Source: Escherichia phage vB_EcoP_EcoN5. From it: a stretch of 64,000 nt of DNA. Shown in pieces: positions 37,961 to 48,057 of this stretch; position 1 is the first letter of the stretch, and each line of letters begins with the position of its first letter. The DNA is taken from the sequence record MN715356; one strand, given 5' to 3'. A model generated the notes under the pieces. The model was given only the letters and a program-made list of their open reading frames with translations. It searched no databases and was not told the DNA's origin. A program made the position numbers and the translations under genes.

Positions 37961-38164
37961 TTAGTAGAACGAACGAATTTCATCCCACACTTGTTCCTGT
38001 TCTTTCCTATAAAAAGAAAGTTGGGTCTTGAACATCTCCACTGATGATTCAAAGTTCTTAGATTGTGCAGCTTCAACGAAACGTTCATGTCGGTTGATTT
38101 TGCACCGTAACATTAAATACTTGGCTTCAAGCCTCCGAAGAGCCTGCCTTTTCTCAAGATTCAC
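37961..38164 (-). CDS. hypothetical protein
   Basis: Co-directional ORF. Confidence 0.35.
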   Translation of the reverse strand: MNLEKRQALRRLEAKYLMLRCKINRHERFVEAAQSKNFESSVEMFKTQLSFYRKEQEQVWDEIRSFY

Positions 38165-38573
38165 TTTTCAGATACTCTGACCAGTCGCCAGATTCGACCA
38201 GAACATCTTGTTCTTCGTCAATGTGATAAATCCAAGCGATAACAGTTTCACCTGAGTCCAGCTTAACGGAAATCTGGGTGCGTTGATAGAAGCTATCTTC
38301 AGGGCTACGTTTGTTGTAACCTTCCAGTCGGTCATACGGACCTTCCAGACCTGCTTTGTCAGTAGCAAACACTTCTACACGAACAGGCTTATTGTTATTG
38401 CTGTGTGCGAGAGAGATGCTTGGGAAGTAGGAACCACCGTAACGGAACAGATCGAAGTTATCTTCAGTCCAACCTTCACCAATTGACTTAGCACCAGCTC
38501 GGTCATTAACTAAATAATTAGCTTGACCACGACGTAGACTTCCGTAACATGCTACAAAAACTTTATCTGACAT
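38154..38573 (-). CDS. gamma-glutamyl cyclotransferase-like (AIG2/GGCT fold)
   Basis: N-terminal 'VFVACYGSLRRGQANY' matches the YGSL..G signature. Confidence 0.55.
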   Translation of the reverse strand: MSDKVFVACYGSLRRGQANYLVNDRAGAKSIGEGWTEDNFDLFRYGGSYFPSISLAHSNNNKPVRVEVFATDKAGLEGPYDRLEGYNKRSPEDSFYQRTQISVKLDSGETVIAWIYHIDEEQDVLVESGDWSEYLKSES

Positions 38574-39099
38574 TTTTCCAACCCTTATGTTGATGTTGAT
38601 TACCTTTGTGGACAGCCAGCATTGAGGATTTAGCTAACCCATTAACGCGACAAAAATTACAAAGGTTCTTAAAAGAAGTGATTTCACCTTCTGGTGAGGT
38701 AAATGACCACTCAAGAGATTGAGCGTTAGCCATGGTGTCGGGGTTTTGAAGTCCAGTATCCCATGCGTGCTGGTTGTTTTCTTGAGAAGTCACCCATTCA
38801 AGATTAATTATGGAGTTGTTTATCTTATTTCCATCCCTATGATTAACAAAAGGCTTACCTTCTGGATTGTCTATCCAAGACAGTGCCACTAGTTGATGTA
38901 AATAGTGGAGTTTTCTATCCGAAAGCTTTACTCTATAGTACCCAGCTTTGGAAATGTTAGGGGTCATTATTAATTCTCTATCTTTCCTATGGCGTGTTAG
39001 AGTCTTAGGATTAATGTACCACCTGTAATTACTTCTAATATCTCCATTATCAGAAACTGAATACTGGTTATCATATCCAGGAATAAATCTCCATTCCAT
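38563..39099 (-). CDS. HNH homing-type endonuclease
   Basis: 'VNHRDGNKINNSIINLEWVTSQEN' HNH motif. Confidence 0.55.
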   Translation of the reverse strand: MEWRFIPGYDNQYSVSDNGDIRSNYRWYINPKTLTRHRKDRELIMTPNISKAGYYRVKLSDRKLHYLHQLVALSWIDNPEGKPFVNHRDGNKINNSIINLEWVTSQENNQHAWDTGLQNPDTMANAQSLEWSFTSPEGEITSFKNLCNFCRVNGLAKSSMLAVHKGNQHQHKGWKNVR

Positions 39100-39159
39100 A
39101 AACCCTCCTTGGTTTAGTTTATCCGAACTAGCCTCCTCTTTCGAAGAGGCTAGAGCAGA

Positions 39160-45079: not shown

Positions 45080-45886
45080 TTATGCTACCTGAAGGAGTTT
45101 GATCTGCTGGTCCGCTTCTTTAACGTTGTTGCCGTTAATGATTTCATGAAGCTTCTCAATCGGAAGGCGAGAGTGCAATGCCATCAGAGTGGACATATCA
45201 CACTGCTGGACAACCTTGTCAACTTGATCGTAAACAAACTTACGGTTTTCACGATCGCTAATCCAGAAGTTAGACAGTGAACGGTATTCGATACCGTAGT
45301 CTTTATAACGGATTGCAGATGCTTTGCCATAGAGTTCTTTACGGCGAGTATCTTTGTCCATAATAACTGCTGGAAGTGACAGGAAGTAATCACACAGCAC
45401 GCCCAACATCATCTGGGTTTGCAGAGTGATATCCAAAGCACCAACCACACCAAGATGTACGTGACCACCGGCAGTACGAAGCCCTTTATTCTGAGAAGTC
45501 GGGGATGGATTCTTCTGACCAGTGAAAGCGTTAAAATCAGGAGTGCATCCGAAGATGAACGCTGATTCATTGAAAGTCTTCATCTCTTCTTCAGTGAAGA
45601 TGTGAGAGCTAACACCCGGAGCTGTTTCCATGTCCAGTTTGTTCAGGACATTGTTGGTGAGATCGATACCACGTTGCATGTTATCGTTAAACGCTTCAAA
45701 GCCGCTCTGTGGGTCAATATCAAACTCAGCCAGTACGTTGTCCTCTTGAAGACGAACATCCTTAGCCAGAGTGATCTTATCGTCCTTAGAACAACCTAAC
45801 AGACCAGCTACAGAGGTGATGATACCGTTGCTGGTACGAACAAACATTTCAGGATCAGAGCCGATAAGGAATTTGCGCTTAGTCAT
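45080..45886 (-). CDS. second GS-like carboxylate-amine ligase-type protein
   Basis: 'LIGSDPEMFV' and 'AGGHVHLGV' motifs. Confidence 0.45.
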   Translation of the reverse strand: MTKRKFLIGSDPEMFVRTSNGIITSVAGLLGCSKDDKITLAKDVRLQEDNVLAEFDIDPQSGFEAFNDNMQRGIDLTNNVLNKLDMETAPGVSSHIFTEEEMKTFNESAFIFGCTPDFNAFTGQKNPSPTSQNKGLRTAGGHVHLGVVGALDITLQTQMMLGVLCDYFLSLPAVIMDKDTRRKELYGKASAIRYKDYGIEYRSLSNFWISDRENRKFVYDQVDKVVQQCDMSTLMALHSRLPIEKLHEIINGNNVKEADQQIKLLQVA

Positions 45887-46850
45887 TGTAATACTCCACT
45901 AGTTCAGAAAAGAGAGATGAGATTGTGTTACCAACTTCTTCAGTAGTAAGACCAGAGTTTGGTCCAGTACGTTGAATCAGTCGGGCTGTAAAGTTTTGGA
46001 CTGTAATGTTTTCCAACTTATTGTCTATTGCTTCACGTTTGTGACCATGACAGTTGGACCAGAGTCTTAACCACTCTGACATTGTTTCATACTCGTCCGG
46101 GTCTTGATCTTTAGCACGAGCAAATCTTCGTAAGGCATCTTGGTTATGGTTGCGAACATAACCGTCCTTGTTGTCACCAACACCGAAGGGGTTTTGAACC
46201 CATACCTGCTTCGTGTATTCATCAGAGTCTACAACCAAAGGAAGGAATGCTGCTGCTGACATATTGTTATTAACAACAATAGAGGTGCTCTCGCTACTCC
46301 CATTGACTCTTCCTCGTTGAGACCATCCACCGAAGAAGTCACGACCCAACCCAGCTAACACTAGAGCGATGCCGATGCGTTTACGCTTCAGCCACTCTTC
46401 CCTGTCTTCAATTCCTTCTGCTAGGAAATCCATTCCACGATACTGCCCTTCCAGGATGCTACGGAAGAGCATAAGTCCTGTGAAGATTTGATCTGCTGGA
46501 TGCTCACGGAGGTTGACAGCTACACTATTCGCTGAAGTGATTGTAAATACATCACGATAGCAAGACATAGAGTTCATAATATCTGCTGTTTCAACCAAGT
46601 TCTTTTCAATTTCAGATGCAACATGACCATGAAAAGAGTGAGTCCAGTAATTCAACATCTCCAATTGCAAGTTGATATCACGGTTGAAGCGTCTATAACG
46701 CCCATCTTCAGTGATAACTTCGCCATCAATATCATTTACGCATTGGCCTTGCATGTAGTTGTGAATACCGAAGCACCCACGACCTAAGAACTTCTGTTCC
46801 CCTAAATCCTGTTGAAGATTCAGAGGTACGATCGTTGTGGAGATTGACAT
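45879..46850 (-). CDS. hypothetical protein within amidoligase cluster
   Basis: 323-aa co-directional ORF. Confidence 0.4.
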   Translation of the reverse strand: MSISTTIVPLNLQQDLGEQKFLGRGCFGIHNYMQGQCVNDIDGEVITEDGRYRRFNRDINLQLEMLNYWTHSFHGHVASEIEKNLVETADIMNSMSCYRDVFTITSANSVAVNLREHPADQIFTGLMLFRSILEGQYRGMDFLAEGIEDREEWLKRKRIGIALVLAGLGRDFFGGWSQRGRVNGSSESTSIVVNNNMSAAAFLPLVVDSDEYTKQVWVQNPFGVGDNKDGYVRNHNQDALRRFARAKDQDPDEYETMSEWLRLWSNCHGHKREAIDNKLENITVQNFTARLIQRTGPNSGLTTEEVGNTISSLFSELVEYYND

Positions 46851-46860
46851 AACTAACCTT

Positions 46861-48057
46861 TTATTTTCCTAAAAATAATCCGCTCATGACACCATCCCAC
46901 TCAGAGGAAGGAATCACTGAATACTCCGAACTTTGGTCCAGAGTCCCACTACTAAATCGCTGAACAATGTTGTAGATGTTGAACAGGTCTTTAGTCTCGG
47001 CACGAATGCCGTAGATTAGCCTGTTAGCTGTTTTCTCATTTTTAGACACGCGACGGGTAAAGTTAACCAAAAGATTATCACCTTTAAGTATCTCTGACCC
47101 ATCTTTTACTAGATCGGGGTGCATCACTGGCAAGAACATTGAGTTGTTAACTCGTAATTCTGCTGTTTCATCATTCTCATAATGAATCCACTTAAAGTCT
47201 TCATCACGGAAATGACCACACCCATCTCTGTATGACTGTTGACGCCAAGGAACTTGAAATGCTTCAGAGTGTTTATCAGCCATGCCGACTGTAAACAGCG
47301 ACGCTGGGAAGATACAAGCATCCCAATCATTACCAACCAGAGTTGCTTTCGTTTCCCCTAAGAGGTTAGTGTAAGTGCTAACCATTCGTGAGTAAACGTA
47401 AGCCTGAAGAATTGTCCAGCCTTCAACCAACCATTTATGAAGGAAGGTTTCAACTTGACTCTCTTCATCTTCGCAATAGAAGGTTCTATCTAACATTAAA
47501 TAGAACAGACAACGATCAGCAGGAACATTCTCAGTTGCTACCCCCATAAAGCCTTTCTCGTGCCAGCGTAAACAGGAGGGACGATCTTTGTCCACAAATG
47601 CTTCCATAGCTTCCAGTACAGCACGAGGTGTGGTTCGATATTCAGGGTTTTTGTCGTTCCAACGATCAATGTTATTCTTAGGAGGTGTGTCTTCATCTTC
47701 ATACGAACACCAACTTAAAGCTTCAGCTACGTGCTTTTCATCACGCCAGCGTCTAAAACCTAACATCTTCATGTGAGTTCCGGAGTTCCAGATATGCTTG
47801 ATTTTACACATATCCATCTCTCGGCTTAACAGGAATTCTTCCCCATCAGCACTACGAACGTTAGCCTCTTCATGCCACACTCGAACGTGCATATTCCACC
47901 CATGAGTTGCCTCATACATGTTAGGGTCGAAGTATTCATCTTCGTCATCATCTTCATCAACGCCACCGTTATAGTTGCGAAGCTGAAGGAACCCATAACA
48001 AGGAGGGTTGACCGTTAAAACATTACCTTCAGTATCTTCTAATGTTACTGGAAACAT
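46861..48057 (-). CDS. hypothetical protein; first 54 codons lie inside the duplicated segment
   Basis: 398-aa ORF with acidic N-terminal 'DEDDDEDEY' stretch. Confidence 0.4.
   Translation of the reverse strand: MFPVTLEDTEGNVLTVNPPCYGFLQLRNYNGGVDEDDDEDEYFDPNMYEATHGWNMHVRVWHEEANVRSADGEEFLLSREMDMCKIKHIWNSGTHMKMLGFRRWRDEKHVAEALSWCSYEDEDTPPKNNIDRWNDKNPEYRTTPRAVLEAMEAFVDKDRPSCLRWHEKGFMGVATENVPADRCLFYLMLDRTFYCEDEESQVETFLHKWLVEGWTILQAYVYSRMVSTYTNLLGETKATLVGNDWDACIFPASLFTVGMADKHSEAFQVPWRQQSYRDGCGHFRDEDFKWIHYENDETAELRVNNSMFLPVMHPDLVKDGSEILKGDNLLVNFTRRVSKNEKTANRLIYGIRAETKDLFNIYNIVQRFSSGTLDQSSEYSVIPSSEWDGVMSGLFLGK

What the first reader, a model, noticed from the sequence alone, without database searches (positions are those of the whole stretch)
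38154..48057. Phage-borne amidoligase cluster: two GS-like ligases, ATP-grasp, class-II amidotransferase and gamma-glutamyl cyclotransferase
A contiguous co-directional block encodes a 398-aa and a 323-aa unknown, a GS-like ligase (45080-45886), a 205-aa unknown, a second GS-like amidoligase (43353-44456), a class-II glutamine amidotransferase with a ~400-aa Cys-rich extension (41243-43273), two small proteins, an ATP-grasp ligase (39597-40799), an HNH endonuclease and a GGCT-like protein (38154-38573). Three amide-bond-forming ligases plus an amide-nitrogen donor plus a gamma-glutamyl-releasing enzyme is the logic of a peptide or metabolite tagging/untagging pathway, not of nucleotide metabolism. 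Comparative-genomic predictions of phage amidoligase systems exist as I recall, but I know of no biochemical characterisation. Substrate (virion protein, the adjacent small proteins, a host target or a small molecule) is unknown.
Basis: partly seen in the sequence, partly recalled or inferred. Interest (0 to 1): 0.78.

Follow-up and report, generated by a model that had tools for sequence, protein, structure and literature searches.

The report
Known phiEco32-type phage amidoligase gene module
The block is real, but it is the already described, still untested gene set of phiEco32-like E. coli phages: three amide-bond ligases, a glutamine amidotransferase and a gamma-glutamyl cyclotransferase, kept in the same order in hundreds of phages and of unknown target.

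Summary

The window is a Kuravirus (phiEco32-like), 95-96% identical to over 60 sequenced phages. The block equals phiEco32 gp77-gp88, and PF14395 is named after it. Later papers cite Iyer et al. 2009 for a "putative peptidoglycan modification module". I found no biochemical test up to mid-2026.

New here:
- The order [X]-lig2-(p205)-amidoligase-GATase-(DUF7195)-ATP-grasp-(GGCT)-primase/helicase recurs in about 79 of 86 loci from at least five phage lineages. 404 IMG/VR contigs encode a relative of the ligase.
- The 323-aa and 398-aa unknowns are paralogs of one undescribed family with an N-terminal C[FY]G motif, placed directly upstream of the ligase.
- The 205-aa and 77-aa proteins are conserved accessory parts.
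- The GATase starts at AUU.
- The HNH gene is a private insertion.

Best reading: an early-expressed, ATP-driven pathway that makes and removes gamma-glutamyl or amide bonds on a small acceptor. Murein precursors are the leading guess but unproven. Protein tagging and DNA modification are not excluded. Already known; moderate interest.

The parts
46861..48057 (-). 398-aa protein (phiEco32 gp88), paralog A of a new 'X' family with an N-terminal C[FY]G motif
   Evidence: phrog_13063 with no function. Only 20 representatives among 1.84 billion proteins. No Pfam or PDB profile hit. The X-family HMM hits its orthologs in L014 at 2.4e-8 and in L013 at 9e-5. Invariant C20-Y21-G22, D181, R191, W271, Q273, G281 and R284.
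45879..46850 (-). 323-aa protein (gp87), paralog B of the X family, overlapping the ligase start by 8 nt
45080..45886 (-). COOH-NH2 ligase type 2 (gp86), a GS/GCS2-like carboxylate-amine ligase
   Evidence: PF14395 at 2e-8, above the cutoff. phrog_3815 at 3e-118. Found in 305 of 50,697 phage records and 404 IMG/VR contigs. Invariant QxD...E, RxxxxHxH and ExR motifs. No solved relative by sequence.
44453..45070 (-). 205-aa accessory protein (gp85, phrog_4877)
43353..44456 (-). Amidoligase_2 (gp84), second GS-like carboxylate-amine ligase
   Evidence: PF12224 at 4e-8, above the cutoff. phrog_7469 at 4e-159. Present in 85 of 86 loci. Invariant G-x-E-x-E, HxH and ExR motifs. Aligns with lig2 only at the HxH motif, hhalign E 0.05. 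No solved relative.
41243..43273 (-). Class-II (Ntn) glutamine amidotransferase (gp83). The GATase domain spans about 245 aa, followed by about 430 aa carrying three CxxC-type zinc motifs. The start codon is AUU.
   Evidence: GATase_6 at 1e-14. The ICGIVLAGG N-terminus, RGxxxxG and HNG motifs are read directly from the sequence. (M)CG[ILV] is conserved in about 80 of 83 homologs. ATT is the start in all 7 kuravirus loci and in 2 unrelated contigs. There is an internal repeat of G-x-C-x-x-C-x-K-x-I-x-W-[KR]-D-A, E 0.007. Nine peptides were detected by MS in SU10.
41007..41240 (-). 77-aa DUF7195 protein (gp82), conserved accessory
   Evidence: PF23825 at 5e-17. LUZ24 gp20 (5e-19) and Vp_R1 gp066 (1.5e-21) hold the same position after the GATase. 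Present in 24 of 86 loci.
40802..41026 (-). 74-aa protein (gp81), kuravirus-specific, role unknown
   Evidence: phrog_13464 only. Found in 10 of 86 loci, all kuravirus-like.
39597..40799 (-). RimK-like ATP-grasp ligase (gp80) with an acidic linker and an 82-aa C-terminal domain
   Evidence: The family profile hits RimK structures 7qyr, 7qys, 5zct and 4iwx at E 6e-9 to 2e-7. phrog_2599 at 2e-183. The C-terminal residues 319-400 equal the stand-alone phrog_20552. Present in 80 of 86 loci. Six peptides were detected by MS in SU10.
39342..39590 (-). 82-aa homolog of phiEco32 gp79 (transcription regulator); embedded passenger, not part of the conserved module
   Evidence: The Paul annotation notes similarity to phiEco32 gp79, 'shown to act as a transcriptional regulator'. 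Present only in kuravirus-like loci, 10 of 86.
39160..39345 (-). 61-aa protein (gp78), kuravirus-specific
   Evidence: phrog_8591. Present in 7 of 86 loci.
38563..39099 (-). NUMOD4/HNH homing endonuclease, a private insertion
   Evidence: Pfam NUMOD4 at 9e-11 and HNH_3 at 6.5e-7. This is the 5% of the block missing from all close relatives. No near-identical DNA in any of 50,697 phage records.
38154..38573 (-). Gamma-glutamyl cyclotransferase, AIG2/GGACT-like (gp77)
   Evidence: PF06094 at 2e-17. The YGSL motif and the LEGY glutamate are read from the sequence. Detected in 48 of 86 loci. Two peptides were detected by MS in SU10.
36144..37934 (-). DNA primase/helicase, the conserved downstream neighbour (context only)
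   Evidence: Found downstream of the module in 43 of 86 loci despite truncated flanks. LUZ24 gp24 matches at 1e-165.

Best explanation
The block is one early-expressed functional unit that carries out ATP-dependent amide-bond chemistry in the infected cytoplasm. The acceptor is most likely a low-molecular-weight, peptide-like molecule.

Inferred steps:
1. The RimK-like ATP-grasp enzyme and the two GS/GCS2-like carboxylate-amine ligases each activate a carboxylate as an acyl-phosphate and join it to an amine, giving up to three distinct amide bonds.
2. The Cys1 Ntn amidotransferase has no fused synthetase domain. It either hands glutamine-derived ammonia to one of the ligases, turning a carboxylate into a carboxamide, or hydrolyses a gamma-glutamyl amide as EgtC does.
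3. The GGCT removes a gamma-glutamyl group that has a free alpha-amine, as 5-oxoproline. That is a deprotection or recycling step.
4. The non-enzymatic or unknown parts probably hold the enzymes together or on their target. These are the SH3-like p205, DUF7195, the zinc-ribbon tail of the GATase and the two C[FY]G-family paralogs.

The leading but unproven candidate substrate is the murein stem-peptide precursor, as proposed by Iyer et al. 2009. It offers a gamma-D-Glu linkage and free carboxylates.

Shown here: gene content, intact catalytic motifs, conserved order, breadth of distribution and expression (from the literature). Inferred: every chemical step and the substrate.
For: - Family assignments and intact motifs.
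- Near-invariant co-occurrence and order in 86 loci from Kuravirus, Grimontviridae, Bruynoghevirus, Zobellviridae and a crAss-like phage. Counts are lig2 86, amidoligase 85, GATase 83 and ATP-grasp 80, with most of the missing genes at contig ends.
- Overlapping or closely abutting genes imply co-translation.
- In SU10 the block belongs to the early gene set, and the ATP-grasp, GATase, GGCT and a 23.3-kDa protein were found by MS.
- In directed evolution of a Pseudomonas phage, two lines independently acquired missense changes in both the amidoligase and the GATase. This links those two genes and shows the module matters for infection.
- From my own knowledge, characterised GGCT-fold enzymes (GGCT, GGACT, ChaC, BtrG) act on small gamma-glutamyl compounds. 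The ATP-grasp BtrJ and the GGCT-like BtrG perform gamma-glutamyl protect and deprotect chemistry in butirosin synthesis. EgtA and EgtC pair a GCS2-type ligase with a class-II-GATase-like gamma-glutamyl amidohydrolase.
- All hosts listed for isolates carrying the ligase are Gram-negative bacteria, which have mDAP-type murein (my own knowledge).
Against: - No biochemical or genetic test exists.
- Neither GS-like ligase family has a solved or characterised relative detectable by sequence, so the chemistry rests on family-level inference.
- Several components carry small beta-barrel or zinc-ribbon modules, which would fit a macromolecular target better than a metabolite.
- Amidoligase and GATase genes are reported in viruses assigned to Poseidoniales archaea, which lack murein (my own knowledge). 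That weighs against the peptidoglycan sub-hypothesis, although the host assignment there is predicted.
- GGCT was detected in only 48 of 86 loci, so it is not obligatory.
Confidence: 0.5

Rival explanations
1. Protein tagging or untagging. The RimK-like enzyme adds glutamates to a protein C-terminus, or the GS-like ligases form isopeptide bonds as PafA does. The target would be a phage or host protein, such as the C[FY]G-family proteins, DUF7195 or ribosomal protein S6. GGCT and the Ntn hydrolase would recycle the tag.
For: The closest solved relatives of the ATP-grasp enzyme are the protein-modifying RimK ligases. From my own knowledge, Pup ligase PafA and the depupylase Dop are also a pair of GS/GCS2-like paralogs. 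Adaptor-like SH3 and zinc-ribbon modules are present. Two conserved paralogs with an invariant N-terminal Cys lie in the operon.
Against: No conserved small protein has a Pup-like GGQ/GGE or LysW-like acidic C-terminus; the small ORFs end in ...KSGS...LKGI and ...FITE. DUF7195 was detected in only 24 of 86 loci. There is no Pfam Pup-ligase hit. From my own knowledge, known GGCT enzymes do not act on intact proteins.
Confidence: 0.2
2. DNA or nucleotide modification. The ligases and the GATase attach or amidate a group on a base or nucleotide, protecting phage DNA from restriction.
For: The module abuts the primase/helicase in all lineages where enough flank is available, and in a crAss-like phage it lies among primase, ThyX and UDG genes. 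[quoted passage not shown] Amidoligase and amidotransferase genes co-occur with thymidine-hypermodification genes in viral contigs.
Against: Among the 47 window ORFs scanned there is no 5-hmdU kinase, aGPT-Pplase, dUMP hydroxymethylase, TET/JBP or DNA glycosylase-type transferase. An ordinary ThyX and a dCTP deaminase are present. The kuravirus, LUZ24 and Zobellviridae primase/helicases are themselves homologous (1e-165 to 1e-80), so the linkage may be inherited rather than functional. These phages are routinely sequenced without reported base-calling problems (my own knowledge, weak).
Confidence: 0.1
3. Auxiliary metabolism. The enzymes rewire host glutamine, glutamate, glutathione or polyamine pools, acting as a gamma-glutamyl-cycle mimic, to support replication or blunt a stress response. 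No dedicated new product is made.
For: The combination of a GCS2-like ligase, an ATP-grasp ligase and a GGCT formally mirrors GshA, GshB and GGCT (my own knowledge). Several genome papers label these genes as auxiliary metabolic genes.
Against: The proteins are very distant from housekeeping enzymes, with no PDB hit for either GS-like ligase. Extra conserved non-metabolic partners (p205, the X family, DUF7195) and the strict operon order argue for a dedicated pathway.
Confidence: 0.1
4. The genes are unrelated neighbours that happen to be co-directional.
For: Passenger genes (HNH, the gp79 homolog, small ORFs) do interrupt the block.
Against: The four core genes co-occur in 80-86 of 86 loci in the same order across at least five phage lineages.
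Confidence: 0.01

Closest known systems
phiEco32 gp77-gp88 cluster, the phage amidoligase or 'putative peptidoglycan modification' module of Iyer et al. 2009 (Mol Biosyst 5:1636)
   Same: Gene-for-gene identical content and order, with 95-96% DNA identity to phiEco32-like phages. PF14395 is literally named 'Phage phiEco32-like COOH.NH2 ligase-type 2'.
   Different: The only differences are a private HNH homing-endonuclease insertion and an adjacent 1518-bp tandem duplication. The function remains a prediction.
Pseudomonas phage LUZ24 gp14-gp22 (Bruynoghevirus) and the equivalent blocks in Vibrio phage Vp_R1, Citrobacter phage CVT22 and Cellulophaga phage phi14:2
   Same: Same enzymes. LUZ24 and Vp_R1 have the same order. 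p205 (phrog_4877) and DUF7195 are shared, and the primase/helicase lies downstream.
   Different: Protein identities are 20-45%. The GATase and ATP-grasp tails differ in length. Zobellviridae place the GATase first, and the crAss-like phage reverses part of the order.
RimK / alpha-L-glutamate ligases (PDB 7qyr, 7qys, 5zct, 4iwx)
   Same: ATP-grasp core with conserved E-x-N and other motifs; profile E 6e-9.
   Different: Below Pfam's curated cutoffs as a single sequence. It carries an acidic linker and an extra C-terminal domain. The substrate is unknown.
Butirosin BtrJ (ATP-grasp) / BtrG (GGCT-like) gamma-glutamyl protecting-group chemistry; EgtA / EgtC in ergothioneine synthesis (my own knowledge)
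   Same: They pair an amide ligase that installs a gamma-glutamyl group with a GGCT-fold or class-II-GATase-fold enzyme that removes it.
   Different: No sequence-level orthology was shown. No carrier protein, PLP enzyme or sulfoxide synthase is present.
Pupylation enzymes PafA / Dop (my own knowledge)
   Same: Two paralogous GS/GCS2-like enzymes working on gamma-glutamyl amide bonds.
   Different: There is no Pup-like tag, no Pup-ligase Pfam match and no proteasome partner.
Thymidine hypermodification clusters (Lee et al. 2021, PMC8989533)
   Same: Some viral contigs combine amidoligase and amidotransferase genes with DNA-modification genes.
   Different: None of the defining 5-HMUDK, aGPT-Pplase or hydroxymethylase genes was found in this window.

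Membership tests
phiEco32-type phage amidoligase module (Iyer et al. 2009) | COOH-NH2 ligase type 2 (PF14395) | tested here: met
   34.1 bits against a cutoff of 25, E 2e-8; phrog_3815 at 3e-118.
phiEco32-type phage amidoligase module (Iyer et al. 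2009) | Second GS-like ligase, Amidoligase_2 (PF12224) | tested here: met
   33.9 bits against a cutoff of 22, E 4e-8.
phiEco32-type phage amidoligase module (Iyer et al. 2009) | Class-II (Ntn) glutamine amidotransferase with an N-terminal Cys nucleophile | tested here: met
   GATase_6 at 1e-14. (AUU)-Cys-Gly-Ile N-terminus. Cys1 conserved in about 80 of 83 homologs.
phiEco32-type phage amidoligase module (Iyer et al. 2009) | ATP-grasp ligase | tested here: met
   As a single sequence it falls below the Pfam cutoffs (19.2 against 21 bits). The family profile hits RimK structures at 6e-9.
phiEco32-type phage amidoligase module (Iyer et al. 2009) | AIG2/GGCT-like cyclotransferase | tested here: met
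   PF06094, 64.2 bits against a cutoff of 22.8.
phiEco32-type phage amidoligase module (Iyer et al. 2009) | Genes clustered and co-linear across unrelated phages | tested here: met
   86 loci analysed; the canonical order holds in about 79 of them.
phiEco32-type phage amidoligase module (Iyer et al. 2009) | Acts on peptidoglycan or its precursors | not testable with these tools
   This is a prediction in the literature only.
GS/GCS2-like carboxylate-amine ligase superfamily | GS-like fold and acyl-phosphate mechanism for both ligases | tested here: inconclusive
   Only Pfam family membership and conserved E-x-E, HxH and E-x-R motifs support it. hhalign between the two ligases gives E 0.05 over 25 columns. 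No PDB relative by sequence. No structure was predicted for them.
Pupylation-like protein tagging | Small disordered tag protein with a C-terminal GGQ/GGE, and a PafA/Dop-family ligase | tested here: not met
   No such ORF in the block. No Pup-ligase Pfam hit.
Thymidine hypermodification pathway (5-HMUDK / aGPT-Pplase) | 5-hmdU DNA kinase, aGPT-Pplase, and a dUMP hydroxymethylase or TET/JBP | tested here: not met
   Pfam scans of 47 window ORFs found ThyX, Dcd, PolA and others but none of these. Small ORFs and the plus-strand structural genes were not scanned.
LysW/ArgW amino-group carrier system | Small zinc-ribbon carrier protein with an acidic C-terminal Glu next to a RimK-family ligase | tested here: not met
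   The 77-aa and 74-aa proteins lack both a zinc ribbon and an acidic C-terminus.

The most novel reading that the evidence does not exclude
The module installs or matures an amide-linked group, such as an amino acid, glutamyl or carboxamide group, on phage DNA or its nucleotide precursors. This would explain the so far unexplained broad restriction resistance of Gordonclarkvirinae and the module's constant position beside the replication genes. The C[FY]G family and the zinc-ribbon tail of the GATase would be the nucleic-acid-handling parts.
Probability: 0.08. Interest if true: 0.85.

Novelty: already known. Interest (0 to 1): 0.4.

Why it matters
The module is one of the most widespread uncharacterised enzyme sets in lytic phages. 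The type-2 ligase alone occurs in 305 isolate genomes and at least 404 IMG/VR contigs. The carriers include therapy candidates against E. coli and P. aeruginosa.

Neither GS-like ligase family has a known substrate or structure. Identifying the product would therefore define two enzyme families. It would also settle whether phages rewrite the host wall, tag proteins or decorate DNA with amide chemistry.

K-12-infecting kuraviruses now exist in the BASEL collection, so the question is directly testable. For this particular window, however, nothing beyond the published phiEco32 cluster is present.

Tried and rejected
- Pairwise BLAST and phmmer among the upstream unknowns (p398, p323, LUZ24 gp12/gp14/gp15, Vp_R1 gp071/gp073, and the CVT22 and WD615 proteins) found nothing significant except CVT22 against WD615.
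- hhalign of p398 against p323 gave only E 0.32. The paralogy was accepted only after the family HMM and jackhmmer chain.
- PDB profile searches for p323, p398, lig2, the amidoligase and GGCT were empty.
- My impression that DUF7195 looks ribbon-helix-helix-like got no support from a PDB profile search, so I dropped it.
- The afdb50 fold library was unavailable.
- Searching for the TAATGTATA motif, which I recall as the promoter element of the phiEco32 sigma factor, found none inside the block. The sigma-70 and terminator scans were no better than shuffles for promoters.
- The hairpins in the 79-nt spacer before the AUU start are not significant, z = -1.09.
- No shared targeting domain was found between the ATP-grasp tail, the GATase tail and p205.
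- Iyer 2009 and Savalia 2008 are not held in the library, so their content is cited second-hand.
- A search for LUZ24 metabolomics papers found nothing useful.
- I did not run the costly genome contigs or metagenome scans, because viral contigs already gave ample context.

Full report
**1. What is in the sequence**

Pfam confirms:
- a GGACT/AIG2 gamma-glutamyl cyclotransferase at 38154-38573 (E 2e-17);
- a NUMOD4+HNH endonuclease at 38563-39099;
- a class-II glutamine amidotransferase domain in 41243-43273 (GATase_6, 1e-14);
- an Amidoligase_2 protein at 43353-44456 (4e-8);
- a "Phage phiEco32-like COOH.NH2 ligase-type 2" at 45080-45886 (2e-8).

The ATP-grasp call at 39597-40799 is sub-threshold for the single sequence (RimK 1e-3). 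It becomes solid with a six-member family profile, which hits solved RimK alpha-L-glutamate ligases at E 6e-9 over about 210 residues.

The 205-, 323- and 398-aa proteins have no Pfam match.

One is an 82-aa homolog of the phiEco32 transcription regulator gp79 (39342-39590). The other is a 61-aa ORF (39160-39345).

**2. The GATase start**

The GATase frame has no ATG, GTG or TTG at its 5' end. It opens after a TAG. ATT at 43273 lies 7 nt after AGGTGGA and directly precedes Cys-Gly-Ile-Val, the hallmark Ntn nucleophile. The phiEco32 reference annotates the same 2031-nt gene. The record of phage Paul cuts the gene to an internal TTG and leaves a 420-nt "gap".

Across 83 homologs the (M)CG[ILV] N-terminus is nearly universal. 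ATG precedes it in 69. ATT precedes it in all seven kuravirus loci and in two unrelated metagenomic contigs.

**3. Identity of the window**

The block is 95-96% identical over 94-95% of its length to more than 60 Escherichia and Shigella phages of the genus Kuravirus (Gordonclarkvirinae), including Paul, SGF2, NJ01, SU10 and phiEco32. It corresponds gene for gene to phiEco32 gp77-gp88.

The missing 5% is the HNH gene. It has no near-identical DNA in any of 50,697 phage records, so it is a private homing-endonuclease insertion.

**4. Conservation**

The type-2 ligase is encoded in 305 phage records, from hosts including Pseudomonas, Escherichia, Vibrio, Aeromonas, Proteus, Salmonella, Cronobacter and Klebsiella. 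404 IMG/VR contigs also encode a relative.

I analysed 86 loci (7 from isolates, 79 from IMG/VR) with iterative HMM searches seeded from the window's proteins:

| Component | Loci with a hit (of 86) |
|---|---|
| lig2 | 86 |
| Amidoligase_2 | 85 |
| GATase | 83 |
| ATP-grasp | 80 |
| p205 | 55 |
| GGCT | 48 |
| primase/helicase | 43 |
| DUF7195 | 24 |

Most absences coincide with contig ends. The order [X x1-2]-lig2-(p205)-amidoligase-GATase-(DUF7195)-ATP-grasp-(GGCT)-...-primase/helicase-exonuclease holds in about 79 of 86 loci. The order is conserved across:
- Kuravirus;
- Grimontviridae (Vp_R1);
- Bruynoghevirus (LUZ24 gp14-gp24).

The same gene set, with part of the order rearranged, occurs in:
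- Zobellviridae (CVT22, and the related, family-unassigned Vibrio phage WD615);
- a crAss-like Cellulophaga phage.

**5. The unknown components**

*The 77-aa protein.* It is a DUF7195 member, as are LUZ24 gp20 and Vp_R1 gp066, in the same position.

*p323 (gp87).*
- The alignment has 59 invariant columns, many of them polar.
- Its best Foldseek hits in BFVD are unknown proteins of other module-bearing phages, including the 442-aa CVT22 protein, at probability 0.97-1.0.
- Jackhmmer links p323 to the ORF directly upstream of lig2 in C3 phages, then to Vp_R1 gp071, then to the Zobellviridae proteins.

*p398 (gp88).* An HMM of the p323 family also hits p398 orthologs (2.4e-8 and 9e-5) and the second upstream ORF of the C3 phages (4e-10). 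The family has only 20 representatives among 1.84 billion proteins.

p323 and p398 are thus paralogs of one undescribed family. It is marked by an N-terminal C[FY]G motif, an [AS]D[QKR]xxxxLxxxR motif and a GYxR[DEN] motif. LUZ24 gp14 and gp15 share the C[FY]G motif and the position, but were not linked statistically. Whether these proteins are thiol enzymes or acceptors is open.

**6. What is known**

Papers from 2023-2025 cite only Iyer et al. 2009 for the function. They describe a putative peptidoglycan-modification module that might prevent superinfection or prepare the wall for lysis. I found no biochemical characterisation in 7.7 million PMC papers and bioRxiv preprints up to mid-2026.

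Relevant experimental fragments:
- In SU10 the block belongs to the early genes. The ATP-grasp, GATase, GGCT and a 23.3-kDa protein (the size of p205) were detected by MS.
- Two independently evolved lines of a Pseudomonas phage each acquired missense changes in both the amidoligase and the GATase.
- The BASEL study reports that Gordonclarkvirinae are strikingly RM-resistant without any known DNA-modification pathway.
- Amidoligase and amidotransferase genes accompany thymidine-hypermodification genes in some viral contigs.

**7. Mechanism**

All five enzymes keep their catalytic signatures:
- Cys1, RGxxxxG and HNG in the GATase;
- E-x-N in the ATP-grasp;
- E-x-E, HxH and E-x-R in both ligases;
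- YGSL and the LEG glutamate in GGCT.

The GATase has no fused synthetase domain. Its roughly 430-aa tail holds beta-rich segments and three CxxC motifs, two of them in a repeated unit.

The most economical model is a dedicated amide-ligation pathway. The three ligases make up to three amide bonds. The Ntn enzyme supplies ammonia or cleaves a gamma-glutamyl amide. GGCT removes a gamma-glutamyl group as 5-oxoproline.

From my own knowledge, known GGCT-fold enzymes act on small molecules. The BtrJ/BtrG and EgtA/EgtC pairs are precedents for installing and then removing a gamma-glutamyl group. I therefore favour a small, peptide-like acceptor (confidence about 0.5). Murein precursors are the leading specific guess (about 0.2).

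Protein tagging (0.2), DNA or nucleotide modification (0.1) and generic metabolic rewiring (0.1) remain open. The window encodes ThyX, Dcd, PolA and a CCA-adding-like nucleotidyltransferase, but none of the hallmark hypermodification enzymes.

**8. Verdict**

The system is already known as a prediction and is annotated in many GenBank records. This window adds only an HNH insertion.

The added value of this analysis is the extended parts list (the X family, p205 and DUF7195), the quantified synteny and the AUU start. Interest is 0.4.

Noticed in passing
window 47896-49413 and 49414-50931: A perfect (0 mismatch) 1518-bp tandem duplication. It repeats the first 54 codons of the 398-aa gene, leaving a truncated 56-aa ORF at 49405-49575, plus four upstream small genes. 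It is absent from phage Paul's annotation. It could be a recent duplication or an assembly artefact.
   Followed up: partly
window 43271-43273: The AUU start codon of the GATase is conserved in all kuravirus loci and arose independently in two metagenomic contigs. The GenBank record of phage Paul truncates the gene to an internal TTG and so loses the catalytic Cys1.
   Followed up: yes
window 38563-39099; also 26346-26840 and 33176-33700: There are three HNH_3 endonuclease genes in the window. The one inside the module has no close DNA relative in 50,697 phage records. HNH genes also interrupt the same module in Pseudomonas phage UFV-P2 and Vibrio phage WD615, so the module seems to be a homing hot spot.
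   Followed up: partly
window 18030-18551, 28860-29216, 16974-17366: Small stand-alone NAD/ADP-ribose-related domains: a Macro domain protein (4.6e-9), a DNA-ligase N-terminal NAD+-binding Nlig-Ia domain (6e-35) and a SLOG/YAcAr domain (5e-6, just below the cutoff). Together they hint at NAD- or ADP-ribose-based host-phage conflict functions.
   Followed up: no
window 34233-35651 and 53434-53509: A 472-aa protein with a weak poly(A)-polymerase / CCA-adding head domain (9e-4) lies next to the replication genes, and there is a tRNA-Arg(TCT) gene. A tRNA nucleotidyltransferase also lies beside the primase/helicase in Vibrio phage WD615.
   Followed up: no
window 41243-41800 (C-terminal third of the GATase): An internal repeat of a zinc-knuckle unit, G-x-C-x-x-C-x-K-x-I-x-W-[KR]-D-A, at E 0.007. 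The last ~160 aa extend beyond the 498-position phrog_4736 profile.
   Followed up: partly
window 29762-30418 and 33669-34223: ThyX (6e-44) and a dCTP deaminase are both present. This makes the BASEL authors' suggestion of dU-containing DNA less likely.
   Followed up: no
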